Positions 1,238 through 13,788 of a stretch of DNA of 64,000 bases are shown here, piece after piece. Source of the stretch: a virus. Below the pieces are notes generated by a model. The model did not search any database and had not been told where the DNA came from. It saw only the letters and a list, made by a program, of their open reading frames with translations. The position numbers and the translations under genes were made by a program. The stretch lies in the IMG/VR virus record IMGVR_UViG_3300042398_001307, positions 24,250 to 88,249 of that record. One strand, written 5' to 3'. Each line of letters starts with the position of its first letter. Positions within the stretch are counted from its first letter, which is position 1.

Positions 1238-1260
1238 GAAAAGGGGGCCGAAGCCCCCAG
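1238..1260 (-). terminator. intrinsic terminator after the DUF2828 gene
   Basis: Minus strand GGGGGC-TTCG-GCCCCC-TTTT. Confidence 0.8.
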
Positions 1261-1264: not shown

Positions 1265-2677
1265 TTAAACCGCGTATCGATCAACCATTACAGTTTTTAA
1301 CATGATACCTTCTGGTGTGAAGTCACTCATGTCTGCCGCCAATAATGCTTTAACAATAGCTGGGCTGAAGCCAGAAACCATAGCTGCACCTGATTTGTCA
1401 GATTTAACTGGTACATTGTCAGATGAATTAATGTTCCAGAACACAATTTGTGGAACAGTGTAACCTGCTGCCGCATATTTGCGTTCAATCATTTGAATTG
1501 CACTATCATCGTAATGACTGCAGCAATTAAATTGCATGTCAGACATTATCAACAACATTTCTGGCATTTCAGCTTGTGGAACATCAAACTTAGTTGCTAC
1601 ATCTAAAATTAAATCAAATGCAGCGTGTAAGTTGGTACTCATACCCCATGCAGATTTAACCATTTGAGTTGCTTTTTCTACAACGTTGCCGCGTAATGTC
1701 AACAATTCTGGTTTTTCATTAAACGTGATAAAAGTATCTTTAAATTTACCAGTGTTTTTATCAGCTAAGTATAAACCTAGTGATACTGCAACATCCATGC
1801 AAGTTACCTCTGATTTAGAAGTATGCCCACCTGCACGACAGGACATTGAGCCACTAACATCAACCAATGGTAAGATATTAGCATCACCAACAAAGTTTGG
1901 TAAAGCATCCCATTGTGCAACGATATGATCTTTTTCAGTTCTATCGAAGCCATAGCTACCAACACCTTTAAGAACATCGTATGGGAATACTGCACCAGCA
2001 TTTACTTTCACACCAGCTTCACCTTTTACCAAAGCTTGAACATATTCGGCAAACTTTGGAGTATGGCGGTTAAATGCTTTTTTATAGCGAGAACTTGCCA
2101 ATGATGGCACATGGTTAAAGTTAATGTTATCCCAGTCATTCGCACACATTTGAGTTTCAACAACAGAAGTTAAAGAAACTAAAGTTTTACGGTATTGTTT
2201 TGGACTCCAACCTAAAAACTTACGAAATTCAACTGCTACATCCCCTTTACGAGGTGTCCATTTAGCAGCTAACCCGTTGCCATCAGTCAGTGCATTTTTC
2301 AACATTGTGAAAGCTTCAGTTTTCATTTCTTGAGTTTTGAACACAAAAATGTCATCCCAACGGCCCAATTCAGGCACTTTAGATAATAATACTTTTGCAG
2401 CATCGATATCAACAGTTTCTAAATGAGCTAAAATGTCTCTGAAAACTTTACGTTCGCCAGAACCGCCGCGAGCATCACGTGCCCATAATGCAATACGCAT
2501 TGCCAAGTCTTTATCTTCAACATATGCTGCTGTAAAAGCAGGAATAATGTCTTTACCACGGCTTGCACCGACATTGTAGAAAAAATCTACAGCTTTGTTA
2601 GTGGTTGATTTACGTGCTTTCATACCATTTGTGGTACGAGCTTCTTGATTTTCTACTGCTTCTACGAATGTAGTCAT
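1265..2677 (-). CDS. DUF2828-family protein with C-terminal vWA domain (inferred Ro60/TROVE-like RNA-binding ring)
   Basis: RDARGGSGER, GRWDD, LAAKWTPR and VETQMC motifs; MIDAS DVSGSM and SDMQF; AGGAG RBS. Confidence 0.8.
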   Translation of the reverse strand: MTTFVEAVENQEARTTNGMKARKSTTNKAVDFFYNVGASRGKDIIPAFTAAYVEDKDLAMRIALWARDARGGSGERKVFRDILAHLETVDIDAAKVLLSKVPELGRWDDIFVFKTQEMKTEAFTMLKNALTDGNGLAAKWTPRKGDVAVEFRKFLGWSPKQYRKTLVSLTSVVETQMCANDWDNINFNHVPSLASSRYKKAFNRHTPKFAEYVQALVKGEAGVKVNAGAVFPYDVLKGVGSYGFDRTEKDHIVAQWDALPNFVGDANILPLVDVSGSMSCRAGGHTSKSEVTCMDVAVSLGLYLADKNTGKFKDTFITFNEKPELLTLRGNVVEKATQMVKSAWGMSTNLHAAFDLILDVATKFDVPQAEMPEMLLIMSDMQFNCCSHYDDSAIQMIERKYAAAGYTVPQIVFWNINSSDNVPVKSDKSGAAMVSGFSPAIVKALLAADMSDFTPEGIMLKTVMVDRYAV

Positions 2678-2694
2678 TGTGTTATCTCCTATGT

Positions 2695-2733
2695 CAGGTT
2701 AGTGTGTTAATTTGGTTTGCTGTTTACTAAACT
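2695..2733 (-). ncRNA. scaffold RNA copy without cargo, in the 5' leader of the DUF2828 gene
   Basis: AGTTTAGT-aaaCAGCAA...ACTAACCTG lies between the promoter and the RBS. Confidence 0.7.
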
Positions 2734-2743
2734 ATAAGTGTGT

Positions 2744-2771
2744 ATTATAGCAGATTTAATTTGTTTGTCAA
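2744..2771 (-). promoter_or_regulatory. sigma70-type promoter
   Basis: TTGACA-16-TATAAT. Confidence 0.8.
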
Positions 2772-3473: not shown

Positions 3474-3580
3474 CAGGCTAGTGTTTGTTGAAGGTTTATA
3501 CTGGCTCTTCCTTCCAGTTCGACTAGCAGTATGTTCGCCAGTCCATCCATTATAATAAATTGGATTGCTGTATCTAGCCT
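3474..3580 (-). ncRNA. scaffold RNA copy
   Basis: AGGCTAG-ataCAGCAA...CTAGCCTG. Confidence 0.75.
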
Positions 3581-3589
3581 AAATATTAG

Positions 3590-3682
3590 CGGAATAGGGG
3601 TTGCCATTTGTTTCGCTTCTAATAGCAAAGAAGTGTTTCTGGAGCGGGTATTAGCCGCGAAATTGTTGCTGTATCTATTCCC
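3590..3682 (-). ncRNA. scaffold RNA copy
   Basis: GGAATAG-ataCAGCAA...CTATTCCG. Confidence 0.7.
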
Positions 3683-3689
3683 AAATTTG

Positions 3690-3977
3690 TTATTCTAAGA
3701 TACCAATGATATCGTGTTCATGCATTACAATATAATCAATACCGTCTACTTTAATTTCAATACCAGTGCCTTTTGCATATAACACGGTATCACCAACTTT
3801 GACGAGCATAGGTCTTGTTTGACCATTATCAAGTTGTTTTCCATCACCAACTGCAAAAACTTTACCGGTTACTGATTTTTCAGTAACATCACTAGCAATT
3901 ATTAATCCAGATGCAGTAGTTTTCTTGTCAGTGTTTTTTTCAACCATAACTCTATCATTTAACACTTGTAAAGTCAT
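3690..3977 (-). CDS. groES: co-chaperonin GroES
   Basis: LNDRVMV, TTASGLII, VKVGDTVLY, EHDIIGI. Confidence 0.95.
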   Translation of the reverse strand: MTLQVLNDRVMVEKNTDKKTTASGLIIASDVTEKSVTGKVFAVGDGKQLDNGQTRPMLVKVGDTVLYAKGTGIEIKVDGIDYIVMHEHDIIGILE

Positions 3978-4249
3978 TATTCAGTCCTATTGATAATATG
4001 ATACCCAAATTGTGTTTGTACTGGTTCACTTAGATCACCAATTGCTAATCCAAATGAAACATCTTCAAATGGTTGAACCATTTGGCCACGGCGAAATGAT
4101 CCAAGATCACCACCATTTTTTCCACTAGGGCATTTACTATGCGATCTTGCTAGTAATTCAAAATCCTCGCCTTCATTGATTTGTTTAATCAAATTTTGTG
4201 CTTCATCTAGTGATCCTACTAAAATATGTCTTGCTCTTACTGTTGTCAT
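3977..4249 (-). CDS. ppiC: parvulin-type peptidyl-prolyl isomerase
   Basis: ARHILV, HSKCPSGKNGGDLG, QTQFGYHII. Confidence 0.95.
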   Translation of the reverse strand: MTTVRARHILVGSLDEAQNLIKQINEGEDFELLARSHSKCPSGKNGGDLGSFRRGQMVQPFEDVSFGLAIGDLSEPVQTQFGYHIINRTE

Positions 4250-4274
4250 ACATTCCTTTATTGTTAAATCAAAA

Positions 4275-4385
4275 CAGGATACGTGTTTTTAGCCTGGCGC
4301 TCTCCCATCTGAGCTACATTTCTATTGAAATGGTAGGACTTGAACCTACGACATCTAGGGTATATAAACTTGCTGAATGTATCCT
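4275..4385 (-). ncRNA. scaffold RNA with circularly permuted tRNA-like domain (YrlA-like)
   Basis: AGGATAC..CAGCAA, T arm GTAGGTTCAAGTCCTAC, closed acceptor hairpin CATTTC-AATA-GAAATG, D arm TAGCTCAGATGGGAGAGC, GTATCCTG. Confidence 0.85.
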
Positions 4386-4394
4386 AAAAATTAG

Positions 4395-4493
4395 CAGGGT
4401 CACTGTATTATACTGGCATACAACCATTATACTTCTAGACGGAATCGAACCGTTCCACCAGTTTGGCTTAATATAAAATGCTGAACTGACCCT
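4395..4493 (-). ncRNA. scaffold RNA with permuted tRNA-Gly(GCC)-like domain
   Basis: AGGGTCA..CAGCA, GCCaa-ACTGG, T arm ACGGTTCGATTCCGT, D arm GTATAATGGTTGTAT, CCAGT, TGACCCTG. Confidence 0.8.
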
Positions 4494-4498
4494 AAATT

Positions 4499-4573
4499 TG
4501 GAAGCGGGAGTTGGATTTGAACCAACGACCTCTGGGTTATGAGCCCAGCCATCTACCACTGATATACCCCGCG
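4499..4573 (-). tRNA. tRNA-fMet(CAT)
   Basis: Cloverleaf, GGG/CCC anticodon stem, unpaired C1, CCA. Confidence 0.9.
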
Positions 4574-4701
4574 ATAATTCTTGTTATAACTGATACTATA
4601 GTAGATGTATATTTGATCTATGATCGCTATTATTATATGTAATAGCATCAGTTATTTTTAGTAGTATACTTGATAATATTTTAGTTGTCAAGTATTTAAA
4701 A

Positions 4702-4754
4702 CAGGCTCATTTTTTCTTGTTTGCAATAAGATTATGTTATGCTGAATTGAGCCT
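4702..4754 (-). ncRNA. scaffold RNA with anticodon stem-loop (GCA, Cys)
   Basis: AGGCTCA..CAGCA..TCTTa-TTGCAAA-cAAGA..TGAGCCTG. Confidence 0.75.
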
Positions 4755-4760
4755 AAAATT

Positions 4761-4834
4761 TGGAGCGGACTACGAGATTCGAACTCGTTTAGCTAGCTTG
4801 GAAGGCTAGAGCACAACCCATATGCCAAGTCCGC
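4761..4834 (-). tRNA. tRNA-Gly(TCC)
   Basis: Cloverleaf, CTAGC-CTTCCAA-GCTAG, CCA. Confidence 0.9.
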
Positions 4835-4843
4835 AATGTTTAA

Positions 4844-4897
4844 CAGGATACGTTTTATTTCACCAATTGAAAGTTTTGTATTTGCTGAATGTATCCT
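4844..4897 (-). ncRNA. short scaffold RNA (cargo ambiguous, possible CT-TTC-AA loop)
   Basis: AGGATAC-attCAGCAA...GTATCCTG. Confidence 0.75.
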
Positions 4898-4903
4898 AAA
4901 ACT

Positions 4904-4979
<76 letters not shown>

Positions 4980-4987
4980 ATTATTCT

Positions 4988-5128
4988 TTAAACTTTGTGT
5001 TTAGTGCCACACACTGTACAAGTGGCGTTAACTTTTTTGAAATCAAGGTTCATTACTCGCATACCTTTTCCGTATGTTTTGTCTTGAAATTCATGATTAC
5101 AATTGCATTTCTTTACTTCTACAGCCAT
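4988..5128 (-). CDS. 46 aa zinc-ribbon-like protein (not in ORF track)
   Basis: MAVEVKKCNCNHEFQDKTYGKGMRVMN...CTVCG. Confidence 0.6.
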   Translation of the reverse strand: MAVEVKKCNCNHEFQDKTYGKGMRVMNLDFKKVNATCTVCGTKHKV

Positions 5129-5307
5129 TAGGCACCTCTTTTAATAAGAATGTTAATACGATTTTGATATTTACGTTTATCACGTGGTCTAACAGTTTTT
5201 TCAACTAGTTCTTGTAATTTAGCTAAACTAAAATTACCAATTCTAACTCTACCATTTTTAGTTTGATTAGGGTTAGCTTTTCTGTTTCCTTTACTAATAG
5301 TTGCCAT
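5128..5307 (-). CDS. 59 aa basic protein (not in ORF track)
   Basis: MATISKGNRKANPNQTKNGRVRIG..., downstream of a TTGACA-17-TATAAT promoter. Confidence 0.55.
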   Translation of the reverse strand: MATISKGNRKANPNQTKNGRVRIGNFSLAKLQELVEKTVRPRDKRKYQNRINILIKRGA

Positions 5308-5327
5308 TTGATGTCCTTATTATACTA

Positions 5328-5609
5328 TTACTTATTGTTGCTGTCAAGTGTTTTTATATTTTCTTCGATAAATTTAATTGCTTCATCGACTGGTAATTCA
5401 CCCACTTCTACATGAAATACATTTCTGTCTTGTGCATGAGCACCATGTGAATTAAATGCTACCTTTGGCAATTCTTTATCGTTGGTTGTACCTAACACTT
5501 CTTCAACAACTTCCTTTTTCTTACCGAAAATTGCATCCCAGTTATCTGCAAACTTCTGCCTGTTAACTGGTCTAGCTGCACTTCCTTTGCCGCCATGCCA
5601 TCCTGCCAT
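5328..5609 (-). CDS. hypothetical protein
   Basis: N-terminal WHGGKGS..R..FADNWDAIFGKK motif. Confidence 0.6.
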   Translation of the reverse strand: MAGWHGGKGSAARPVNRQKFADNWDAIFGKKKEVVEEVLGTTNDKELPKVAFNSHGAHAQDRNVFHVEVGELPVDEAIKFIEENIKTLDSNNK

Positions 5610-5821
5610 TGTATCTCCGTTACATTTTTGTTGCCAATATAGTTTTGGCTAATTCTTTTGTTGCGATTAAATCATTCTGACTAAATGAACTTTTAATCTT
5701 TTCTGAAAATTCAATTCTTTCTTCTATTGTCATTAATCTATAAATTATTTTTATCAATTCATAATCAAATTCAGTTGGTTCTTCTAAATTTTCAAACATA
5801 ATAATTATCTAGTCAGTGTGT

Positions 5822-6154
5822 TTAAATTTCAGGTTGAGTTTTTATAAATCGATCAATATTTTGAATCATCAATTGTTTCAACCTAACTTTATCATATTCA
5901 GGTTCTTTTAAACATTCTGGAAGTGTTAGCCTGAATAAAGTTTCTTTTTCTTCATCATATATGGATAATGCCCATATCTGTGTTCCACAGAATCCACTAG
6001 CAGCTAATAATATCATTTGCCACCCATCACCTTTAATAAAACTATGGGTGCGTTGCAATCGTGGTCCAACATTTGTTTTCAGAAAATCAAAAGTATTAGC
6101 TAATCTATTTTGATAATCTTCACCATAAGAATTGTTTCCGTGTATTACTAGCAT
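5822..6154 (-). CDS. hypothetical protein
   Basis: Probable start MLVIHG after GAGG RBS; the longer ORF overlaps tRNA-Ala. Confidence 0.5.
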   Translation of the reverse strand: MLVIHGNNSYGEDYQNRLANTFDFLKTNVGPRLQRTHSFIKGDGWQMILLAASGFCGTQIWALSIYDEEKETLFRLTLPECLKEPEYDKVRLKQLMIQNIDRFIKTQPEI

Positions 6155-6174
6155 TTGTGCCTCTGTGTTAAAAT

Positions 6175-6248
6175 TGGTGGAGACTAGGAGAGTTGAACTC
6201 CTGATAACGCCGTGCAAGGGCGTGGTTATACCATTTAACTAAATCCCC
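6175..6248 (-). tRNA. tRNA-Ala(TGC)
   Basis: Cloverleaf, G3-U70, CCA. Confidence 0.92.
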
Positions 6249-6251
6249 GGT

Positions 6252-6905
6252 TTATTTTAATTTTCGTCCCTTAACCCATCCTTCTGGTATTGGACTATTC
6301 TTTTGTATCTTTATATTTTTGTTAAGTTCTGCATTATGAATCCACATAGTTCCGTATTGAGAATTCTTTTCACCTGATTGTGAAATTGAACTTAACATAC
6401 CTATTTTTCTCTTTGCTTCATCTGAATGAGTTTTACCAAAAAAAGTGCCTGGTTTATTGCTATACTCTTTCTTTTTTATATCACTAATGGTTTTAGAGTA
6501 TTGTTGTTTGAATTCGTTATCTTCACGCAACTTTTTATGAAATGCATCAGAAGCTTTTTTCAGTGATGATAAAACTCTTGGATTATTTTTCCTACAATAT
6601 CTATTGAAGCCAGATGAATTTACATAATCGAACCCACCATGACCACCTTCTTTAATATTATACGTATCATTCCTACGGATAAAATCTTCTGTAACTAATT
6701 CTCTCTCCAATTCATACATTTGGTCTGAATTGTCAAATACTTGTAAAATGTCTTTTGTAAAATTATCAATACCATACTTACCAATAGCATGTTTAATGTA
6801 TTTTCCAGAACCCATATAACCATCATTTATATCTTTGGTTTTGTGAACACCAATATAAATTTTACCATTTGTATTGTTTGTTATTTTATAAACTATATAT
6901 TTCAT
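6252..6905 (-). CDS. free-standing GIY-YIG homing endonuclease (Seg-like) with NUMOD3
   Basis: YIVYKITN..KIYIGVH..GYMGSG; GKTHSDEAKRKI. Confidence 0.9.
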   Translation of the reverse strand: MKYIVYKITNNTNGKIYIGVHKTKDINDGYMGSGKYIKHAIGKYGIDNFTKDILQVFDNSDQMYELERELVTEDFIRRNDTYNIKEGGHGGFDYVNSSGFNRYCRKNNPRVLSSLKKASDAFHKKLREDNEFKQQYSKTISDIKKKEYSNKPGTFFGKTHSDEAKRKIGMLSSISQSGEKNSQYGTMWIHNAELNKNIKIQKNSPIPEGWVKGRKLK

Positions 6906-6954
6906 AGTATTATTTAGCAAAGTTCGAGACTTACCTTCGAACTTAAAATACTAT

Positions 6955-7043
6955 TTGCTCCACCCGCGCGACTCGAACACGCATACGGTTTCCCGATTAC
7001 AACTGATTAACAGTCAGTCCTCTTACCATTAGAGTAGGGTGGA
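6955..7043 (-). tRNA. tRNA-Asn(GTT), atypical (long variable arm, no encoded CCA)
   Basis: ACTGA-CTGTTAA-TCAGT; acceptor TCCACCC/GGGTGGA extended by a 10-bp inverted repeat. Confidence 0.8.
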
Positions 7044-7175
7044 GCAAATAGTACTTATAATAGTTTAGTATCAAGAGTGAGTTGTACCAAGATACCGGTC
7101 ATTCAAAATATTGTTATACAATATCTAAATCTCGCACCGCATGTTATTGTAAACTATCTTTTATTTATATTTTAT

Positions 7176-7238
7176 CAGGATGCGTTTTAACATTTTCAAT
7201 TTTTGAGATTGCTGTTTAAAGTTTGCTGAATGCATCCT
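7176..7238 (-). ncRNA. scaffold RNA with anticodon stem-loop (CAA, Leu)
   Basis: AGGATGC..CAGCAA..CAAT-CTCAAAA-ATTG..GCATCCTG. Confidence 0.8.
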
Positions 7239-7247
7239 AAAACTTTA

Positions 7248-7335
7248 CAGGATCTTTTATTTAGTGGACTTGAACCACTTAACTTACGAATATTAATCGT
7301 TTGTATTTTCCAAAGGAATATGCTGTAAAGATCCT
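7248..7335 (-). ncRNA. scaffold RNA with anticodon-like arm plus T arm
   Basis: AGGATCT..CAGCA..ACGA-TTAATAT-TCGT..AGTGGTTCAAGTCCACT..AGATCCTG. Confidence 0.8.
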
Positions 7336-7341
7336 AAATTT

Positions 7342-7430
7342 TGGCGGAAGATGTGAGATTCGAACTCACGCAACCCTTTCGAGGTTGACGGTTTAGCAAA
7401 CCGCTCCATTAACCACTCTGGCAACCTTCC
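7342..7430 (-). tRNA. tRNA-Ser(GCT)
   Basis: Type II cloverleaf, CCA. Confidence 0.92.
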
Positions 7431-7445
7431 TATTATTTTAAATTA

Positions 7446-7529
7446 TGGTACGTCTGGGCAGATTCGAACTGCCAACTCCGAAGAGTATGGGTTTTAAGCC
7501 CACTATGTATTCCGTTCCATCACAGACGC
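7446..7529 (-). tRNA. tRNA-Leu(TAA)
   Basis: Type II cloverleaf, CCA. Confidence 0.92.
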
Positions 7530-7546
7530 ATTATATACTTTATTAT

Positions 7547-7625
7547 CAGGTTAGTTGCTTACCTAAAGCTAATCGCATATAGCGACCGGAATCGAACCGA
7601 CTGTTTATTTTGCTGTAGCTAACCT
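7547..7625 (-). ncRNA. scaffold RNA with minimal permuted T-acceptor-D domain
   Basis: AGGTTAG..CAGCAA, TCGGTTCGATTCCGG, TCGC-TATAT-GCGA, TAGCTTTAGGTAAGC, CTAACCTG. Confidence 0.8.
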
Positions 7626-7634
7626 AACATTTAT

Positions 7635-7768
7635 CAGAATGCATTTTATTTTTCACCATCGCGTTTACCAGTTTCGCCACTTAAAACCAGGTTTTAAGGT
7701 AGGACTTGAACCTACAAATCAAAGATAACGGTTTCCTATTAATAAAATATAGTTGCTGTAAGCATTCT
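7635..7768 (-). ncRNA. scaffold RNA with permuted tRNA-Leu-like domain
   Basis: AGAATGC..CAGCAA, T arm, CTTAAAAC-CTG-GTTTTAAG, Leu-type D arm GGCGAAACTGGTAAACGC, GCATTCTG. Confidence 0.85.
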
Positions 7769-7774
7769 AAAACT

Positions 7775-7849
7775 TGGAGGCAGCGGGATGATTCGAACAT
7801 CCGTCCTTTGGGTTATGAGCCCAACAATCTACCACTGATATACGCTGCG
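7775..7849 (-). tRNA. tRNA-Met(CAT), second initiator-like copy
   Basis: GGG/CCC anticodon stem, C1 mismatch, CCA. Confidence 0.88.
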
Positions 7850-7905
7850 TTAATTCTTTGTGTATATTATACACGATTTTTTAATCTTGTCAAGATTAAT
7901 TTTAA

Positions 7906-8028
7906 CAGGATCCTTTTTTTACGTTGCTCTACCAAACTGAGCTAATCCCCGGTAGTTTTTCGGGGATGTTGGATTTGAACCAACGACCAACGGCTCCCAA
8001 TGCAATTATTGTATGCTGAACGGATCCT
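7906..8028 (-). ncRNA. scaffold RNA with permuted tRNA-Pro(TGG)-like domain
   Basis: AGGATCC..CAGCA, ATTGGGA, T arm, ATCCCCG-A..CGGGGAT closed acceptor, D arm TAGCTCAGTTTGGTAGAGC, GGATCCTG. Confidence 0.88.
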
Positions 8029-8097
8029 AAAACTTTTAAAATTGTTAAAGAGCTTATTAACTAATATGTGTACATTATACACTAATTAAATTATATG

Positions 8098-8562
8098 TCA
8101 AGTATAATTTGCTTCCCATCCATCTTTTTCAGTAAAAAATCTTACTGCCTTGATATTTGGATATTCACCAGCATCAAACCAATGTTTTACATTAGCTGGG
8201 ACACTGATTAAATCATTTGGTCCTACATCAAGTTCATAAAAAGTATCAGATACATTAAAAAAGAACTTTGCAGTACCATGAGTAAATAAACGCATTTCAT
8301 AATCAGTGTGAAAATGCTCTTTTTTAAACTGCTCTCTTAATGATTGATAGTTGTTAGTTGAACTATCCAATACAATAGTATCATTGTAAGGAACATCATA
8401 ATCATATTTTATTTGTTCTATAATGTTCTCATCGGGTGGAACATGGACATATAATACATGAATATTATCTAATTGTCTAGCAATTTCTTCATATTCCACG
8501 TAAGTAGTAAAATCTTCTGTGTTATCATAAATTTTTAACATAATACTACTTATCTTTTGCAC
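8098..8562 (-). CDS. mtnD: acireductone dioxygenase (cupin)
   Basis: EHFHTDYEMR, DLISVPANVKHWFD, AVRFF..GW. Confidence 0.85.
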   Translation of the reverse strand: MQKISSIMLKIYDNTEDFTTYVEYEEIARQLDNIHVLYVHVPPDENIIEQIKYDYDVPYNDTIVLDSSTNNYQSLREQFKKEHFHTDYEMRLFTHGTAKFFFNVSDTFYELDVGPNDLISVPANVKHWFDAGEYPNIKAVRFFTEKDGWEANYT

Positions 8563-8580
8563 TATAATAGTGCTAAAATT

Positions 8581-8603
8581 TGGCAGCGCGGGAGGGATTT
8601 GAA
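8581..8603 (-). pseudogene. tRNA 3' fragment (partial T arm, acceptor strand, CCA)
   Basis: TTCAAATCCCTCCCGCGCTGCCA with no adjacent 5' half. Confidence 0.55.
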
Positions 8604-8635
8604 TTGACCATCACTGCTTCTATATTTCTGAGTTA

Positions 8636-9247
8636 TTATTTCTTGTGTGGCATCCCGCCTTTTTTCCACCCTATAGTTTCATAATAAGTTAGTTCTTGTT
8701 TATCTATTCGCTTGGCAACAAACCCATTATTAATGAGAATTTTACCTATATTTGCTTCAGCAATTTTTTTACTATGGTCTAATGTCCTTGGATATGATGA
8801 TATTTTTTTCATATGCTCACGGTGAGCAGACGGGTTATGTTTAGACCAATGGTTTTTTGAAATATTGTTTCGTTTTCTATCAGTTGTAATTTGCTGTAAT
8901 GCAGCATTTCTTATTTTTTCTTTAGTTTCTGTTGAATGCCTTCTTCCACTAAATGCACCTATAATGCCAGGGTTCCCTCCAGAACCTCCCGGTTTTATAT
9001 TATATGTATTGGAAGTAGTTATAAATTCTTCGGTAACTATCTCCGCTTCTTTATCAAACATTTCTTGTTTAGAATTGAAAATAAACAAAATATCTTTTTT
9101 AAAATTTTCAATTCCGTATTTTTTTATGGCTCGTTTTAAATATTTTCCTGAACCCATGTATCCATCATTAATATCATCGGTGGAATGAGCTCCAATGTAT
9201 ATTTTTGAATCTATCAAATTAGTTGTTTTGTATATTATATAATACAT
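8636..9247 (-). CDS. free-standing GIY-YIG homing endonuclease (Seg-like)
   Basis: YIIYKTTN..KIYIGAH..GYMGSG; GRRHSTETKEKI. Confidence 0.9.
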   Translation of the reverse strand: MYYIIYKTTNLIDSKIYIGAHSTDDINDGYMGSGKYLKRAIKKYGIENFKKDILFIFNSKQEMFDKEAEIVTEEFITTSNTYNIKPGGSGGNPGIIGAFSGRRHSTETKEKIRNAALQQITTDRKRNNISKNHWSKHNPSAHREHMKKISSYPRTLDHSKKIAEANIGKILINNGFVAKRIDKQELTYYETIGWKKGGMPHKK

Positions 9248-9443
9248 TTAAATTCTCCTATATGTATTTATACAAAACCATCATGATACCATTTCATCAC
9301 CGGGCTAAAAAAATAAATTCCAGGATAGTTTAATCTCTATGAAGCCTCTATCTTCCTATTGAAAGTTATCTGGAACGGGCTAACTCACTCTTGTTTATTT
9401 TAATAGGTTAAGAGCTTAACCGCCACAAAGGGCTCCTATTGTT

Positions 9444-9533
9444 TGGCGGAAGCGGTGAGATTCGAACTCACGGAACCTTGCGGTTCGCCAGTTTTCAAGA
9501 CTGGTGCAATAGGCCATGCTCTGCCACACTTCC
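9444..9533 (-). tRNA. tRNA-Ser(TGA)
   Basis: Type II cloverleaf, CCA. Confidence 0.92.
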
Positions 9534-9570
9534 ATAATTTGAAGGCCGGTCTATGACCTGCCTTAATAAT

Positions 9571-9646
9571 TGGTACCCTGGGGGAGACTTGAACTCCCAA
9601 AACCTGGTTTCTAAGACCAGTACGTATGCCATTCCGTCACCAGGGC
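9571..9646 (-). tRNA. tRNA-Leu(TAG) with short variable loop
   Basis: CTGGT-CTTAGAA-ACCAG, Leu-type D loop, CCA. Confidence 0.88.
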
Positions 9647-9652
9647 AATATT

Positions 9653-9904
9653 CTATTTATCTGTTAAATTTACTGCTAATAATAAAAAAGTCATCATCTT
9701 TTCATCTTTCAATCCAATCCAGTATGGGCCAGTAGATTGGCTTGCTCTATAATGATTCCAAATACTGAAATCCATACCATATTTTTCTTTTAATGTATTT
9801 CTACATTCTTGTGCGCCTTTTGACCATGTGCTATTGAATCGTAATGCTACAACAAATCCTTTATGGTATAGATGATGTGTTTTATTCAGTTTAACAACTT
9901 TCAT
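9653..9904 (-). CDS. hypothetical protein
   Basis: Probable start MKVVKL. Confidence 0.55.
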   Translation of the reverse strand: MKVVKLNKTHHLYHKGFVVALRFNSTWSKGAQECRNTLKEKYGMDFSIWNHYRASQSTGPYWIGLKDEKMMTFLLLAVNLTDK

Positions 9905-9919
9905 ATTATTAAAATAATT

Positions 9920-9995
9920 TGGAGCTAATAATCGGGATCGAACCGATGACCTCCACTTTACCAAAGTGGTGCTCTACCTACTGAGCTATATCAGC
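9920..9995 (-). tRNA. tRNA-Thr(GGT)
   Basis: Cloverleaf, CCA. Confidence 0.92.
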
Positions 9996-10004
9996 TTTTT
10001 AAAT

Positions 10005-10079
10005 TGGCACCCTTGGAGGGAATCGAACCCCCATCATCTAGTTCGTAGCCAGGTATTCTATCCATTAAACTACAAGGGC
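10005..10079 (-). tRNA. tRNA-Arg(ACG)
   Basis: Cloverleaf, CCA. Confidence 0.92.
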
Positions 10080-10089
10080 TTTATTTTAT

Positions 10090-10202
10090 CAGGATCTGCT
10101 TTTTACGGTTTCCTACCACTAGAAGAACTCTTATAATTAAGAGTGTAGGATTCGAACCTACGTTCCCGGCCTGGAATGCTAATTGTATGCTGTATAGATC
10201 CT
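10090..10202 (-). ncRNA. scaffold RNA with permuted tRNA-like domain
   Basis: AGGATCT..CAGCA, ATTCCAG, T arm GTAGGTTCGAATCCTAC, closed acceptor ACTCTTA/TAAGAGT, D arm CTTCTAGTGGTAGGAA, AGATCCTG. Confidence 0.85.
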
Positions 10203-10211
10203 AAAATTGTT

Positions 10212-10484
10212 TTACTTCAGCTGTGATTTTTTAAACAAACGATCCAACTTAGTGTTGATATCTTTGCAGTATTGTTCAGCCAATAATGCAGCTTTCACTG
10301 CAGCATCAGTTTTAACATTTAATACAGTCACTGCTTTGTTGGTGTCAGCCAACTCAGAAACTAATGTTTTCTGGTTTGATTCGATCACATCGATTTCACT
10401 TTGTAATTTAGCAATATCAGAATTAGTAGCACATCCAGATAAACCAATCAATGCGACTACTGATAACATAACTAATTTTCTCAT
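10212..10484 (-). CDS. Lpp/OprI-like outer-membrane lipoprotein
   Basis: Lipobox LSGC, heptad coiled coil, KLDRLFKKSQLK C-terminus. Confidence 0.8.
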   Translation of the reverse strand: MRKLVMLSVVALIGLSGCATNSDIAKLQSEIDVIESNQKTLVSELADTNKAVTVLNVKTDAAVKAALLAEQYCKDINTKLDRLFKKSQLK

Positions 10485-10513
10485 TTTACACCTTTGTTAA
10501 GTTAAAAAAAATA

Positions 10514-10604
10514 CAGGATGATATATTTTGGCGGAGCCGAGGGATTCGAACCCCCTATAGATACCTACTTATCGGCTTCGGGATTACAGTGCTGTAATCA
10601 TCCT
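10514..10604 (-). ncRNA. scaffold RNA enclosing an acceptor/T-arm minihelix with internal GCCA
   Basis: AGGATGA..CAGCA..GAAGCCG..GGGGTTCGAATCCCT-CGGCTCC-GCCA..TCATCCTG. Confidence 0.8.
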
Positions 10605-10615
10605 ATGTTAAACAA

Positions 10616-11029
10616 TTAAGATAATCGTTCTTTTTCTGATTCCATAAAGCGTGTTCGTTTTACAAGTGATAAAACGAATTCTGACTCAGCGATTGATTTG
10701 GAATCAAGATCAATTCGCAAGTTCAAGAAATACGAAACATCGTTGTGAGTTAGTTTGATTGAGTTGAAATCAGTAACTTCACCAGTAAATGATGATGGTA
10801 CTTTGATAACAATGTCTAACAGTCTTTCAAAATGTTTATCCGCATCAATGAAATACTGTTCAACGAATGATTTCAAATGATGTGGTGTATTTCTCATGGT
10901 ATCGGTTTTATAATTTCTGTAAGAACCAACCGAAACTTTTACCGCTTCAATAAGGTCAGTACCAGTGTATCTAGGATACTCAGGGATTAAGTTGTAAGGG
11001 GTTTTTACTTCTTGTTCAATTACTAGCAT
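10616..11029 (-). CDS. hypothetical protein
   Basis: Probable start MLVIEQ. Confidence 0.55.
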   Translation of the reverse strand: MLVIEQEVKTPYNLIPEYPRYTGTDLIEAVKVSVGSYRNYKTDTMRNTPHHLKSFVEQYFIDADKHFERLLDIVIKVPSSFTGEVTDFNSIKLTHNDVSYFLNLRIDLDSKSIAESEFVLSLVKRTRFMESEKERLS

Positions 11030-11057
11030 TATATCATTCCGATAATAGTTAAAAAAT

Positions 11058-11131
11058 TGGCAGGGATACAAGAACTCGAATCTTGAATGCCAGAATCAAA
11101 ATCTGGTGTGTTACCATTACACTATATCCCA
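11058..11131 (-). tRNA. tRNA-Gln(TTG)
   Basis: Cloverleaf, CCA. Confidence 0.9.
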
Positions 11132-11141
11132 ATTGTTATTA

Positions 11142-11260
11142 CAGGTTAGCATTTTAAGTTTTCCCAATTAAACTACATTAAGTGACCAACCCTAACGCTG
11201 GGATTCGAACCCAGAACTTTCTTTTACAATAAGATTTAATAAAATTGCTGAAACTAACCT
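11142..11260 (-). ncRNA. scaffold RNA with permuted tRNA-like domain
   Basis: AGGTTAG..CAGCAA, TCTT-ATTGTAA-AAGA, T arm CTGGGTTCGAATCCCAG, closed acceptor, D arm TAGTTTAATTGGGAAAAC, CTAACCTG. Confidence 0.85.
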
Positions 11261-11298
11261 ATTGGTCTTATTCGCTGGTGACTAACCTCGAATGTTCT

Positions 11299-11556
11299 TT
11301 AAATTATTTCTATAAAGTCTTCTATCATACTTTTTGCTTTCTTGTATGATTTTTCATTCCACAATATGTCAGAATTATTTGGCATATGTCCAGGATTTCC
11401 ACCTAAATGACTATTACGTATCAAGTACTCTTCTGCTTCTCGGAAGTAATTTAAAAATGCTTGTCCATACCTATATGTTGGGTATTTTACCAACATCCAA
11501 GTATAATGAGCGTTAAATTCTTCATACTGCTGTGTTGTTATTGAGAATTCAGTCAT
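11299..11556 (-). CDS. hypothetical protein
   Basis: 85 aa ORF with YRYGQAFLNYF motif. Confidence 0.6.
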   Translation of the reverse strand: MTEFSITTQQYEEFNAHYTWMLVKYPTYRYGQAFLNYFREAEEYLIRNSHLGGNPGHMPNNSDILWNEKSYKKAKSMIEDFIEII

Positions 11557-11577
11557 ATTATAGTTAAGTTAAGATTA

Positions 11578-11641
11578 CAGGATACACATTTTTACGGGTT
11601 TGATTAGCAGTCAAATGTATTATTGTTGCTGTAGGTATCCT
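11578..11641 (-). ncRNA. scaffold RNA with anticodon stem-loop (GCT, Ser)
   Basis: AGGATAC..CAGCAA..TTTGA-CTGCTAA-TCAAA..GTATCCTG. Confidence 0.85.
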
Positions 11642-11660
11642 AAAACCGTTTATGCTATGT

Positions 11661-11688
11661 ATTATACAGCATTTTAAAACATTGTCAA
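11661..11688 (-). promoter_or_regulatory. sigma70-type promoter
   Basis: TTGACA-16-TATAAT directly upstream of a scaffold RNA. Confidence 0.75.
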
Positions 11689-11697
11689 TATTTATTT

Positions 11698-11772
11698 TGG
11701 AGCGGGTAATGAGATTCGAACTCACGACATTCAGGTTGGCAACTTGAAGCTCTACCACTGAGCTATACCCGC
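11698..11772 (-). tRNA. tRNA-Gly(GCC)
   Basis: Cloverleaf, CCA. Confidence 0.92.
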
Positions 11773-11779
11773 TTAAAAT

Positions 11780-11854
11780 TGGCGGACTGTACGGAATTCG
11801 AATCCGTGATACCACCGTGACAGGGTGGCGTGATAACCGCTTCACTAACAGTCC
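11780..11854 (-). tRNA. tRNA-Asp(GTC)
   Basis: Cloverleaf, CCA. Confidence 0.92.
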
Positions 11855-11976
11855 AAAATTGTTGAGTATCTAACATCATACAATACTCGGGAGACCTCTA
11901 CCAGCCTCGTTTTTATTACTGCGCCTATCCGAAGATAGTGTTTCAAATGATATTAAGGTTGCCCAGCTCTAGAGTT

Positions 11977-12055
11977 TGGAGCTCCGAGACGGATTCGAAC
12001 CGCCGATTTTTACTGATTTGCAGTCAGTCCCATTAAGCCACTTTGGTATCGGAGC
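11977..12055 (-). tRNA. tRNA-Cys(GCA)
   Basis: Cloverleaf, U73, CCA. Confidence 0.9.
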
Positions 12056-12062
12056 AAAAACT

Positions 12063-12509
12063 TTATAATAATTTTAAATGACCACTTATTGGGTCAATAT
12101 TTTCTGGATAATCTGGACCGAGTGCTAAACAAGTTTTTGTTGGCACTCCATTAAATTCAGTCAATCCAGCATCAGTTATTAATTTAACATTTACGTTATT
12201 ATCTAATGCTTTTTGATAAATGTCAAGCAATTCTTCTTCACTGTCAACTGAAACACAAACTTTGGTAAATCTACCTTCTAACCATTCTTTAAGAGGCTGT
12301 TTATTTAATTGGATTACAGCACAATTTCCTACCTGAGATTCATAATTGTGATAACCATCGTTATAATCGATAGATGCATCCAAATATATCTCGCTGTAGT
12401 TAAGAATAGCGCCTAATGATGCGTGACTTGCTTGAGCGGCAATTTTGCCTTTTCTCATGTTAAGGTCTTTTCTAACTACAATTACTTGTTTTGGTTCATT
12501 ATTAGCCAT
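12063..12509 (-). CDS. pth2: peptidyl-tRNA hydrolase, Pth2 (archaeal/eukaryotic) type
   Basis: KQVIVVRKDLNMRKGKIAAQASHA, ITDAGLTEF, TCLALGP. Confidence 0.92.
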   Translation of the reverse strand: MANNEPKQVIVVRKDLNMRKGKIAAQASHASLGAILNYSEIYLDASIDYNDGYHNYESQVGNCAVIQLNKQPLKEWLEGRFTKVCVSVDSEEELLDIYQKALDNNVNVKLITDAGLTEFNGVPTKTCLALGPDYPENIDPISGHLKLL

Positions 12510-12524
12510 ATTTTTCCTAAATGT

Positions 12525-12598
12525 TGGTACCCAGTAGTGGTATCGATCCACTGTTTTGGTCTTATCAGGACCACGTTCTACCTTTGAACTAACCGGGT
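12525..12598 (-). tRNA. tRNA-Ile(GAT)
   Basis: Cloverleaf, variant T loop, CCA. Confidence 0.88.
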
Positions 12599-12771
12599 AT
12601 AATTCTATTTAAACGGAGTTTTTTCACAAGCTAGTGCATGTAGATATGCATATCTTCTAGCTTCATAAGTCAATGTTGCTTCGTTTAATTGTTGTTGTAA
12701 TTTTAGCATATCTTTCTCTGCACTGTCAAGATATCTTTTAGCAATATCTGATGTTCTTTTACCTGCCATAC

Positions 12772-13146
12772 TTACCTCGCAAATCTTTTAGATTTTAACA
12801 ATGACGATAATTCTTTTTCAAATGAAAAAGGTTTATTATCTTCTGGTCTATCGTAAATATAATCTGGAACAATAATTCCAATACAAGTTAGAGCATTGTC
12901 TAAACTAGGTTCATTAAAAGTTGCCCAAGGCAAGTTATTCGAAGAATGTTTAAATAACCACAATAAACCATGCATTTGTTCACTAGTACCGCCATTCAAC
13001 ACATACATTGTTTTATGGGTCTCTGCCCAGTCTGTCAGTATTTCATTACCAGGGAAATTATTGTTGATTTCCTGTAAGCAATGTGCAGCTTGAATTCCAT
13101 GTTGTATGGAACTTAGGTACATATTTGTTAAAAAGTATCCTCTCAT
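12772..13146 (-). CDS. divergent Pth2-fold-like protein
   Basis: LSSIQHGIQAAHC...KTMYVLNGG...FNEPSLDNALTCI pattern. Confidence 0.55.
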   Translation of the reverse strand: MRGYFLTNMYLSSIQHGIQAAHCLQEINNNFPGNEILTDWAETHKTMYVLNGGTSEQMHGLLWLFKHSSNNLPWATFNEPSLDNALTCIGIIVPDYIYDRPEDNKPFSFEKELSSLLKSKRFAR

Positions 13147-13163
13147 ATATTCCTCTGTGTGTT

Positions 13164-13238
13164 TGGAGGTAACGGGTAGATTTGAACTACCGACCAACTC
13201 CGTATGAAGGAGCTGCACTACCACTGTGCTACGTTACC
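13164..13238 (-). tRNA. tRNA with CAT anticodon (elongator Met or Ile2)
   Basis: Cloverleaf, CTCC-TTCATAC-GGAG, CCA. Confidence 0.88.
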
Positions 13239-13257
13239 ATTATATAAACTAATTAGG

Positions 13258-13331
13258 GGTGACCGATGGGACTTGAACCCATAAAAACCTGAATCACAAT
13301 CAGGATCGTCTACCAATTCCGACACGGCCAC
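13258..13331 (-). tRNA. tRNA-His(GTG), no encoded G-1 or CCA
   Basis: CCTGA-TTGTGAT-TCAGG, C73; flanked by ACTAATTAGG/CCTAATTAGT. Confidence 0.85.
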
Positions 13332-13584
13332 ACCTAATTAGTCTAATTTTATATTAAAATGCATTAAACGAGGGAACACGAATGCTATACATTCTCCTGT
13401 CTCCGGCCCTCAAGCTTAACATCCTTCTGGCCAGTGATGTCAAGGTGACTGATTAATGCACTTTAATATAAAATCATATAATAAAGCATACTACACGGAA
13501 TTGAACCGTCTTCATTCAAGCCAGGAGCTCAAACTGTGATCCACACAACGCTGATCAGACGCTAATATGCTTTATTATATGATT

Positions 13585-13660
13585 TGGTAGGACCGCCGAG
13601 ACTCGAACTCGAATTCCCGGATTAAAAGTCCGGTGTTCTAACCAATTGAACTACGATCCC
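13585..13660 (-). tRNA. tRNA-Lys(TTT)
   Basis: Cloverleaf, CCA. Confidence 0.92.
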
Positions 13661-13726
13661 AAATTTTCTTGCCTTCTTTTTCTGTTTTTGTCTTTCGTTT
13701 CATAATTATTTCCTATGTTGTTATAG

Positions 13727-13788
13727 CAGGATACGTTTTTACTAGTTGAATTAAAAGTTCAGTGTAAATTGTTTGCTGAATGTATCCT
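13727..13788 (-). ncRNA. scaffold RNA with anticodon stem-loop (TTT, Lys)
   Basis: AGGATAC..CAGCAA..TGAA-CTTTTAA-TTCA..GTATCCTG. Confidence 0.85.

What the first reader, a model, noticed from the sequence alone, without database searches (positions are those of the whole stretch)
2678..2771. Cargo-less scaffold copy is the 5' leader of the DUF2828 gene (possible autoregulation)
Seen: promoter TTGACA-16-TATAAT, then a minimal scaffold (AGTTTAGT-aaaCAGCAA..ACTAACCTG), then AGGAG RBS and ATG within about 18 nt. Inference: free protein binds its own leader and represses translation, matching protein level to the RNA pool. This is the strongest sequence-internal link between the protein and the RNA family.
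Basis: partly seen in the sequence, partly recalled or inferred. Interest (0 to 1): 0.78.

Follow-up and report, generated by a model that had tools for sequence, protein, structure and literature searches.

The report
Partner-RNA look-alike in Ro60-like gene leader
The message for this phage's Ro60-like RNA-binding protein begins with a stripped-down copy of the handle found on the phage's own small RNAs, placed right against the ribosome-binding site, and over 100 related phages keep it there, so the protein probably controls its own production.

Summary
On the minus strand, a perfect sigma-70 promoter (2771-2744) is followed by a short stem enclosing CAGCAA (2734-2695). Four bases later come AGGAG and the ATG of the DUF2828/DUF7788 gene (1265-2677). 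The AlphaFold model of that protein matches only Ro60 structures at full length.

The motif is a degenerate, cargo-less member of a handle family with at least 16 perfect copies in the adjacent tRNA/small-RNA array. The window's own copy is weak. It has one U.C mismatch, folds no better than shuffles, and scores E=0.35 across the whole window but 7.6e-4 when only the leader is searched.

The comparative test is decisive. 109 of 112 distinct homologue leaders carry a handle ending -3 to 40 nt before the ATG, against 85 of 1118 other ORFs. The stem covaries: 95.4% of cells are paired, 5 of 8 pairs have changes on both sides, and there are 16 and 26 distinct stem pairs in the two sets. Leader copies form a distinct short subclass.

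Best reading (about 0.5): an autogenous translational operator that mimics the protein's RNA partners. Binding and repression are untested.

The scan had already noted handles in DUF2828 leaders on other DNA. I found no paper describing this.

The parts
2766..2771 (-). -35 hexamer TTGACA
   Evidence: 12/12 promoter match with a 16-nt spacer.
2744..2752 (-). Extended -10: TG at 2752-2751 and TATAAT at 2749-2744. The predicted transcription start is about 2739-2735, which is 1-5 nt before the handle.
   Evidence: The start site is inferred from spacing only. The same -10-to-handle spacing of 7-14 nt occurs in 19 of 111 distinct leaders.
2726..2734 (-). 5' arm of the leader handle. It pairs with 2695-2703 and has a U.C mismatch at 2731/2698.
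   Evidence: and the cmsearch alignment.
2717..2722 (-). Conserved unpaired core CAGCAA
   Evidence: CAGCA is invariant in alignment A6.
2695..2703 (-). 3' arm of the handle, ending in CCUG
2686..2690 (-). Shine-Dalgarno AGGAG, 4 nt after the handle
1265..2677 (-). Ro60-like protein gene (DUF2828 + DUF7788/vWA with MIDAS motif D273-S275-S277). The ATG is at 2677-2675.
   Evidence: phrog_850 'RNA-binding protein'; the top 13 PDB matches are all Ro60/TROVE.
1243..1258 (-). Intrinsic terminator directly after the gene: a 6-bp all-GC stem followed by a T run
3475..14862 (-). Array of at least 16 perfect-stem handle RNAs (52-133 nt) interleaved with tRNA genes. This is the family of which the leader copy is a degenerate member.

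Best explanation
The 5' leader of the Ro60-like gene is a cis-acting operator that imitates the handle of the phage's own Y-RNA-like small RNAs. The handle is a terminal stem, an unpaired C(A/C)GCA(A), an A-rich opposite strand and a closing CUG.

Proposed mechanism: protein not occupied by the array RNAs binds this lower-grade copy. The copy ends 0-6 nt from the Shine-Dalgarno sequence, so the bound protein blocks 30S entry. Synthesis of the protein is thereby matched to the pool of partner RNAs. This is autogenous translational repression by molecular mimicry, as with ribosomal proteins or ThrRS.

Shown here:
- The element exists.
- It belongs to the handle family.
- It is conserved with covariation at this exact place in more than 100 distinct phage leaders.
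- It is a distinct short subclass of the family.
- The protein has the Ro60 fold.

Inferred:
- That the protein binds the handle. This rests on the analogy to Ro60 and Y RNA and on gene-RNA co-location.
- That binding represses translation.
For: (1) Placement. 52 of 52 distinct leaders in set 1 (homologues 68-100% identical) have a handle ending 10-27 nt before the ATG, and 57 of 60 in set 2 (relatives of P0123) have one ending -3 to 40 nt before it (mostly 6-28). For other ORFs of at least 80 aa in the same loci the figures are 44 of 673 and 41 of 445.

(2) Covariation on 54 MAFFT-aligned leaders:
- 95.4% of cells are paired, against 74.6% in shuffles (0 of 500 shuffles reach the observed value).
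- 5 of 8 pairs have changes on both sides.
- Slid controls give 21-41% paired.
- RNAalifold predicts the same 7-bp stem on its own.

(3) Same family as the array RNAs. Model R2 was built only from 50 foreign leader copies.
- Its 13 best window hits are all array copies on the minus strand.
- It finds the window leader at E=7.6e-4 in a targeted search.
- In set 2 it gave 32 hits at E<=0.01, all on the gene strand. By my reading of the table, 20 of them end within 40 nt of the gene start.

(4) Distinct subclass. 7% of 82 distinct leader copies have an interior of at least 60 nt, against 68% of 234 non-leader copies.

(5) Promoter-proximal class. 19 of 111 leaders, the window included, have a near-consensus promoter whose -10 ends 7-14 nt before the handle. 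Of these, 13 of 19 have interiors of 21 nt or less, so they have nothing to display except the handle. Sinorhizobium phage phiN3 (40% protein identity) has the same design.

(6) The protein has the Ro60 fold. The top 13 PDB matches are all Ro60/TROVE, with E from 1.7e-8 to 2.1e-6 and TM 0.39-0.61. The model has pLDDT 88.5.

(7) Handle copies lie on the gene strand 427 times and on the opposite strand 11 times.
Against: - No binding or expression data exist. No RNA run holding the stretch was listed, which counts neither way.
- The window's clade has the worst copy of all 54 leaders. It supplies all 4 unpaired cells at pair 10/85, and L001 also breaks the otherwise invariant G-C pair.
- The stem folds at -1.2 to -2.4 kcal/mol, no better than shuffles.
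- Over the whole window E is only 0.35, and model R1 missed the leader.
- Handle-then-ORF is not exclusive to this gene. Window ORFs starting at 11556, 10484 and 4249 follow copies at 21-29 nt, and the 90-aa ORF does so in 4 other loci.
- The design is not universal. Felixounavirus warpig has no handle in its leader. KVP40 has CAGCAA without a clear stem. Cronobacter phage S13 has a hairpin plus CCUG without CAGCA. In Vibrio phage BUCT194 the last copy carries cargo and ends about 31 nt before the ATG.
- The leader core does not covary with the array cores of the same phage. In loci whose leader has CCGCA, 35 of 43 array copies still have CAGCA.
- The sign of regulation is open. The 3' arm's CCU can also pair with the SD's AGG (centroid structure), so binding could instead free the SD.
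Confidence: 0.5

Rival explanations
1. The leader copy is just the last small-RNA gene of a co-transcribed array. The handle marks RNA units that are cut out of a long precursor, and the DUF2828 message is what remains after the last cut. Position next to the SD reflects tight packing, not feedback.
For: - In 92 of 111 distinct leaders no strong promoter lies between the previous copy and the leader copy. The preceding sequence is often the 3' end of another handle.
- Other window ORFs follow handle copies at 21-29 nt.
- 44 of 673 and 41 of 445 other ORFs have a handle within 40 nt of their start.
- From recall, not from a call: in Salmonella, Y RNAs are encoded inside the rsr-rtc operon.
- In Thermus phage phiLo, Yrl1 and Yrl2 lie directly upstream of the Ro60 gene (PMC12135203, passages).
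Against: - The enrichment is 109 of 112 for this gene against 85 of 1118 for other ORFs.
- Leader copies are a separate short class, with 7% against 68% having interiors of at least 60 nt.
- In the promoter-proximal class the copy has a 10-21-nt interior and carries nothing to release.
- The gap to the ATG is narrow, 10-17 nt in 51 of 52 set-1 leaders.
Confidence: 0.2
2. The element has a positive or protective cis role. The handle at the very 5' end, alone or with the protein bound, shields the message from 5'-end-dependent decay. Or it keeps the 3' arm's CCU from pairing with the SD, so that binding raises rather than lowers translation, or loads the new protein in cis.
For: - The predicted transcription start is 0-7 nt before the handle in 19 leaders, so the stem would sit at the 5' terminus.
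- The centroid fold of the window leader pairs CCU of the 3' arm with AGG of the SD.
- From established knowledge: 5'-terminal stem-loops stabilise bacterial mRNAs such as ompA.
Against: - The CCU/AGG pairing is 3 bp at about -1 kcal/mol.
- A plain stabiliser would not need the conserved CAGCA core or the family's A-rich strand.
- In most leaders the handle is internal to a longer transcript.
Confidence: 0.15
3. The element is functional in relatives but vestigial in this window's clade. Once a strong promoter of its own was acquired, the operator decayed.
For: - The window, L005 and L007 carry U.C, and L001 carries two A.C mismatches, at pairs that are intact in all the other 50 leaders.
- The interior is reduced to 11-15 nt in the window, L005 and L007, and to about 13 nt by eye (20-21 by the scripts' pairing, which picks another 3' arm) in L001.
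- The fold is no better than shuffles.
Against: - Across the four distinct leaders of the clade, CAGCAA, the 3' arm with CCUG and the spacing to the SD are unchanged, while the loop and the post-SD bases vary.
- U.C is what a half-finished switch between two attested states of that pair would look like. In A6 that pair is G-C in 12 of 50 and U-A in 5 of 50.
- Other promoter-bearing clades keep perfect minimal stems (L034, L037, L108).
Confidence: 0.1
4. The match is a chance resemblance in an AT-rich leader.
For: - The fold is weak.
- Each short word alone occurs at chance frequency. AGTTTAGT has 3 matches against 2.98 expected, and ACTAACCTG has 13 against 12.6.
Against: - The combined descriptor is expected about 0.001 times per 60 nt.
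- The element is conserved with covariation in 109 of 112 homologue leaders.
Confidence: 0.01

Closest known systems
Ro60 (Rsr/TROVE) with Y RNAs, especially bacterial and phage YrlA/YrlB (Rfam RF02553; Chen et al. 2014, PMC4201824) and Thermus phage phiLo Ro60 with Yrl1/Yrl2 (PMC12135203)
   Same: - The protein is a ring-plus-vWA fold.
- The small RNAs have a 5'/3' terminal stem, a conserved unpaired motif beside it and often a tRNA-like interior.
- The RNA genes lie on the same strand within a few kb of the protein gene.
- In phiLo the two Y-like RNAs lie directly upstream of the Ro60 gene (passages).
   Different: - The protein matches Pfam DUF2828/DUF7788, and no TROVE match was returned.
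- It has no sequence match in the PDB.
- The RNA motif is C(A/C)GCA(A), not the GNCGAAN0-1G / CGAA motif (passages).
- Rfam YrlA is matched only below its threshold, 41.6 bits at most against 69.
- The terms 'autoregulat', 'UTR' and 'leader' had no occurrence in the phiLo paper, and 'autoregulat' had none in Chen et al. 2014.
Autogenous translational operators that mimic the protein's main RNA ligand: ribosomal-protein leaders (L1, S8, L20), the E. coli thrS operator that mimics the tRNA-Thr anticodon arm, T4 RegA/gp32, and the MS2 coat-protein hairpin (all from established knowledge, recalled)
   Same: - A reduced copy of the ligand's binding site sits at or beside the SD or start codon of the protein's own message.
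- Such an operator is typically weaker than the primary ligand, so repression sets in only when the ligand is saturated.
   Different: - The regulator here would be a Ro60-fold protein. I found no report of such feedback for that fold.
- Binding and repression are untested here.
- In most relatives the operator is also a unit of a tandem RNA array.
Bas63 gp130, a Ro60-like protein of a Felixounavirus that counters the 'ppl' defence (PhageMaP preprint 10.1101/2024.10.10.617714; passages)
   Same: - It is a phage Ro60-like protein encoded next to a tRNA cluster.
- The authors suggest some of the 'tRNAs' are Y RNAs.
- A Felixounavirus homologue of the window protein (phage warpig, 40% identity) has handle copies among its tRNAs.
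   Different: - I did not compare gp130 itself with the window protein.
- The Felixounavirus leader I read (warpig) has no handle.
- gp130 alone, expressed from a plasmid, protected T7 (passage), so its function there does not need phage RNAs or this leader.

Membership tests
Ro60 / Y RNA (YrlA-type) ribonucleoprotein system | Protein with the Ro60 architecture (HEAT-repeat ring plus vWA domain with a MIDAS motif) | tested here: met
   The AF2 model has pLDDT 88.5. The top 13 Foldseek PDB matches are all Ro60/TROVE over about 520-555 alignment columns. The DxSxS motif is invariant.
Ro60 / Y RNA (YrlA-type) ribonucleoprotein system | Protein belongs to the TROVE sequence family | tested here: not met
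   Pfam returns only DUF7788 and DUF2828. There is no NCBIfam hit and no PDB sequence hit at E<=1.
Ro60 / Y RNA (YrlA-type) ribonucleoprotein system | RNA carries the Ro-binding motif GNCGAAN0-1G / CGAA next to the terminal stem and reaches the Rfam YrlA gathering score | tested here: not met
   The conserved motif here is C(A/C)GCA(A). The best YrlA scores are 41.6, 38.7 and 31.8 bits against a gathering score of 69, and none falls in the leader.
Ro60 / Y RNA (YrlA-type) ribonucleoprotein system | RNA genes lie close to the protein gene and on the same strand | tested here: met
   There are at least 16 copies within 0.8-12 kb upstream on the same strand. In the loci, 427 copies are on the gene strand and 11 on the opposite strand.
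Autogenous translational operator by ligand mimicry | The leader element resembles the protein's presumed primary RNA ligand | tested here: met
   A model built from leader copies retrieves the array copies. The window leader scores 18.6 bits, E=7.6e-4 in a targeted search.
Autogenous translational operator by ligand mimicry | The element overlaps or abuts the SD or start codon | tested here: met
   In the window there are 4 nt between the stem and AGGAG. In 51 of 52 set-1 leaders the handle ends 10-17 nt before the ATG. In L008, L016, L017 and L019 the closing G of the handle is the first base of the SD-like GGAG/GAGG.
Autogenous translational operator by ligand mimicry | The protein binds the element and lowers its own translation | not testable with these tools
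   No protein-RNA modelling or expression data were available. No RNA run holding the stretch was listed.
Intrinsic terminator / attenuator | GC-rich hairpin followed by a U run | tested here: not met
   No terminator-like site is listed between 2678 and 2771. The stem is AU-rich and is followed by ACAUAGGAG.
Described cis-regulatory RNA (riboswitch, r-protein leader and the like) in Rfam 15 | Match to an Rfam family in the leader | tested here: not met
   No match overlaps 2678-2771 at the gathering score or at E<=1.

The most novel reading that the evidence does not exclude
The leader handle is a sensor, not only a thermostat. Leader copies in many relatives display a small hairpin, in some a 7-nt anticodon-loop-like one, and the array RNAs look like tRNA decoys. 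Occupancy of the leader by the Ro60-like protein would therefore report how much protein is free of decoy or damaged tRNA-like RNA. Synthesis of an anti-defence RNP would then be coupled to the state of host tRNA-targeting immunity during infection. The handle would be a portable protein-recruiting tag that phages graft onto tRNAs, tRNA fragments and mRNAs alike.
Probability: 0.12. Interest if true: 0.85.

Novelty: new variant of a known kind. Interest (0 to 1): 0.66.

Why it matters
Ro60 and Y RNAs are conserved from bacteria to humans, and how their amounts are matched is unclear.

This finding gives a Ro60-fold protein family present in 710 of 50,697 phage records a conserved copy of its presumed partner-RNA handle at its own ribosome-binding site.
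- It is the clearest sequence-internal evidence that this protein recognises that handle.
- It offers a minimal binding-site candidate of about 40 nt for gel shifts, structures and reporters.
- It would be the first feedback loop of this kind that I could find for the Ro60 fold.

It also bears on a family of which one member has been reported to counter a bacterial defence (preprint 10.1101/2024.10.10.617714; passages).

Tried and rejected
1. Single words of the motif occur at chance frequency. Only the combined architecture is informative.

2. Model R1, built from 4 window array copies, over-fitted their interiors and missed the leader at E<=10. It was replaced by R2.

3. MAFFT on mixed short and long copies misaligned the 3' arms. 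I did not use those alignments.

4. The script counts undercounted leaders (38 of 48 and 45 of 52). The strict TG end and a keep-first-candidate artefact were the causes. One search is the corrected count with the same rule applied to the control ORFs.

5. R2 on five complete phage records gave 0-2 hits per genome at E<=0.01. It missed even copies seen by eye next to the gene, so it is too insensitive at that distance to test co-location.

6. I tested whether the leader core covaries with the array cores of the same phage. It does not.
   - In set 1 all 37 leaders have CAGCA. In set 2, 18 of 45 leaders have CCGCA, against 11 of 128 non-leader copies.
   - The rows are related, so the Fisher values are not probabilities.

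7. The search for related loci with P0195 and P0259 found no relatives in viral contigs.

8. No RNA holder was listed for window 1265-3100.

9. Complex prediction was not used, because it does not take RNA.

10. I considered terminator, attenuator and riboswitch readings and rejected them.

11. Literature searches.
   - 'DUF2828' returned 5 papers, none about phages judging by title and start of abstract.
   - I also searched 'YrlA'+'phage', Ro60/Y RNA/bacteriophage/tRNA-like, Ro60/phage/defense system/vWA and Ro60/autoregulation/own mRNA.
   - None of these listings or the passages I read describes a handle in a Ro60-like gene leader.

Full report
**What is there.**
The gene at 1265-2677 (minus strand, 470 aa) matches Pfam DUF7788 (8.7e-48) and DUF2828 (5.9e-21) and PHROG 850 'RNA-binding protein'. 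Its 94-nt upstream stretch reads, on the minus strand, as follows.
- TTGACA at 2771-2766, a 16-nt spacer, and TG-n-TATAAT with TATAAT at 2749-2744.
- Ten bases further on, a 9-position helix between 2734-2726 and 2703-2695. It encloses AAA, CAGCAA (2722-2717) and a 13-nt A/C-rich stretch.
- Then ACAU, AGGAG (2690-2686), eight bases, and the ATG (2677-2675).
- The helix has one U.C mismatch (2731/2698).
- A strong terminator follows the gene (1258-1243).

**The family it belongs to.**
A scan for the architecture 7-nt arm, 2-5 nt, CAGCA, interior, complementary arm found 16 perfect copies. All are on the minus strand between 3475 and 14862, and they are 52-133 nt long. One lone plus-strand match looks like chance.
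- The copies are interleaved with 26 tRNA genes.
- The long copies contain T-arm-like sequence and give sub-threshold matches to Rfam YrlA: 41.6, 38.7 and 31.8 bits against a gathering score of 69.
- Six copies are only 52-63 nt long, so being short is not unique to the leader.
- The leader copy has the smallest interior and the only imperfect stem.

**The protein.**
An AlphaFold2 model built from a 61-sequence alignment has pLDDT 88.5. Its 13 best PDB matches are all Ro60/TROVE structures: Xenopus Ro, Deinococcus Rsr, human Ro60 and Thermus phage phiLo Ro60. E runs from 1.7e-8 to 2.1e-6 and TM from 0.39 to 0.61. After these come isolated vWA domains.
- There is no sequence-level match to the PDB.
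- Homologues occur in 710 of 50,697 phage records, some annotated 'Ro-like RNA binding protein'.

**Is the window's leader copy more than chance?**
- Taken alone it is marginal. The fold is -1.2 to -2.4 kcal/mol, and 152-173 of 200 shuffles fold at least as well.
- A model built from four window copies missed it.
- A relaxed descriptor is expected 1.05 times per 64-kb strand, about 0.001 per 60 nt.
- Model R2 was built from 50 leader copies of other phages, with the window's clade left out. It scores the window leader 18.6 bits. E is 0.35 over the whole window and 7.6e-4 when only the leader is searched.
- R2's 13 best window hits are array copies. Leader copies elsewhere and array copies here are therefore one family.

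**The comparative test.**
I used two sets of related phage contigs. Set 1 is 80 loci with homologues 68-100% identical. Set 2 is 80 loci related to the more distant P0123.
- After removing duplicates, 52 of 52 and 57 of 60 leaders carry a handle ending -3 to 40 nt before the ATG. In set 1, 51 of 52 end 10-17 nt before it.
- For other ORFs of at least 80 aa in the same loci, counted by the same rule, the figures are 44 of 673 and 41 of 445.
- The three misses in set 2 are L101 (core GAGCA), L159 (core CCGCC) and L146 (no handle seen).
- Earlier counts were undercounts caused by my script.

On a MAFFT alignment of 54 distinct leaders the 8-pair stem behaves as follows.
- 95.4% of cells are paired, against 74.6% in shuffles (0 of 500 shuffles reach the observed value).
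- With the partner slid by 1-3 columns, 21-41% are paired.
- 5 of 8 pairs have changes on both sides.

RNAalifold finds the same stem unaided. Sixteen and 26 distinct stem pairs occur in the two sets.

Outside these sets the picture is mixed.
- Sinorhizobium phage phiN3 has the same promoter, minimal handle and SD design.
- Synechococcus phage BUCT-ZZ01 has three copies upstream, the last ending 22 nt before the ATG.
- Vibrio phage BUCT194 has six copies upstream, the last carrying cargo and ending about 31 nt before the ATG.
- KVP40, Cronobacter phage S13 and the Felixounavirus warpig lack a complete handle in the leader.

**Is the leader copy special, or only the last of an array?**
Arguments that it is special:
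- 7% of 82 distinct leader copies have interiors of at least 60 nt, against 68% of 234 non-leader copies.
- 19 of 111 leaders have a near-consensus promoter whose -10 ends 7-14 nt before the handle. The handle would then be the very 5' end of the message. In 13 of those 19 the interior is 21 nt or less.
- A handle with nothing mounted on it, kept at that spot in several lineages, argues that the handle itself is what matters there.

Arguments against:
- In the other 92 leaders the copy simply follows the previous handle.
- Three other window ORFs sit 21-29 nt behind a copy.
- The leader's core variant does not track the array's.

**The window's own copy.**
The window's clade (window/L004, L005/6, L007, L001/2) supplies all four unpaired cells at pair 10/85, and L001 breaks the otherwise invariant G-C pair. 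In the other 50 leaders that pair is A-U 33 times, G-C 12 times and U-A 5 times. The window's U.C is therefore half of each of two attested states.
- Within the clade, the core, the 3' arm and the spacing to the SD stay fixed while the loop varies.
- This fits a weak but maintained site. Decay cannot be excluded.

**Mechanism.**
My best reading, at about 0.5, is autogenous translational repression. The Ro60-fold protein recognises stem plus core as it presumably does on the array RNAs. Sitting 0-6 nt from the SD, it keeps the 30S subunit off.
- Binding is inferred from the Ro60-Y RNA analogy and from co-location, with a strand bias of 427 to 11.
- Repression is inferred from geometry.
- Rivals: the last unit of a processed array (0.2), a stabilising or activating 5' element (0.15), a vestigial copy in this clade (0.1), and chance (0.01).

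**Comparison with what is known.**
The system works like Ro60 with YrlA-type Y RNAs but fails two membership tests.
- The protein has no TROVE sequence match.
- The RNA motif is not the GNCGAA/CGAA motif and does not reach the Rfam threshold.

The leader works like the mimicry operators of ribosomal proteins or thrS (recalled). Papers consulted:
- phiLo Ro60 has its two Y-like RNAs directly upstream of the gene. The terms 'autoregulat', 'UTR' and 'leader' had no occurrence in that paper (PMC12135203, passages).
- Bas63 gp130, a Ro60-like protein next to tRNA genes, counters the ppl defence (preprint 10.1101/2024.10.10.617714, passages).
- A jumbo-phage survey mentions ROT/TROVE proteins with a tRNA-like partner in one sentence (PMC7824862, passage).

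I found no paper on DUF2828 in phages or on Ro60 feedback through a Y-like leader. Supplements were closed.

Earlier notes of this scan record the handle family, and handles in DUF2828 leaders, on other DNA. I used them as leads only.

**Verdict.**
This is a new variant of a known kind. Interest 0.66.

Noticed in passing
window 14862-14809, 13788-13728, 11641-11579, 7238-7177 (minus strand); also leaders of L121, L133, L137 and others: The short handle RNAs enclose a 4-5-bp hairpin with a 7-nt loop that has the anticodon-loop pattern (pyrimidine, U, three bases, purine, N). Examples are loops reading CUUGAAA, CUUUUAA, CUGCUAA and CUCAAAA. Many leader copies in set 2 carry such a hairpin as well. 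This was seen by eye.
   Followed up: partly
L082 1088-1330 (minus strand), Cronobacter phage S13 NC_028773.1: Two genes annotated tRNA-Ser (121 nt) and tRNA-OTHER (113 nt) downstream of the Ro60-like gene are tRNA-like bodies. In them a closed handle hairpin (3' arm, short loop, 5' arm, then the CAGCA core) sits where the anticodon arm would be. This is the circular permutation of the window's design.
   Followed up: no
window 4249, 10484, 11556 (ORF starts, minus strand): Three other ORFs start 21-29 nt after a handle copy: 90 aa (phrog_16409), 90 aa (no family) and 85 aa (phrog_6714). The 90-aa ORF keeps this arrangement in L001, L004, L007 and L008. The protein might therefore act on more than its own message.
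   Followed up: partly
L088-L167 leaders: In set 2, 18 of 45 perfect-stem leader copies have the core CCGCA. Only 11 of 128 non-leader copies do, and 35 of 43 array copies in those same loci keep CAGCA. This is a leader-specific core variant in some lineages.
   Followed up: partly
window 1-20000, minus strand: Ten perfect 12/12 sigma-70 promoters, all on the minus strand, punctuate the tRNA/handle-RNA region: 19762, 19631, 16437, 16131, 13835, 11688, 8101, 7893, 5347 and 2771.
   Followed up: no
window 19132-19206, 19289-19588, 17829-17975 (minus strand): A tRNA with anticodon CUA, called tRNA-Pyl by ARAGORN and so possibly an amber suppressor, lies next to a permuted tmRNA (92.5 bits) and a Polynucleobacter-1 RNA (83.1 bits).
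   Followed up: no
window 5884-5831 (minus strand): A handle-like stem (7 bp, ending in CCUG) without the CAGCA core scores 26.4 bits with R1 and 19.9 bits with R2. It may be a degenerate or variant family member.
   Followed up: no
L085 about 2440-2500, Vibrio phage KVP40: The leader of the KVP40 homologue has a promoter and then CAGCAA about 9 nt before the SD, but no convincing flanking stem. It may be a remnant or a different way of presenting the core.
   Followed up: no
window 594-1034 and 3690-3977 (minus strand): A YqeY-like protein (Pfam PF09424; phrog_1460 'tRNA amidotransferase') lies just downstream of the Ro60-like gene's terminator. A GroES-like co-chaperonin (phrog_3188) lies inside the RNA array.
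   Followed up: no
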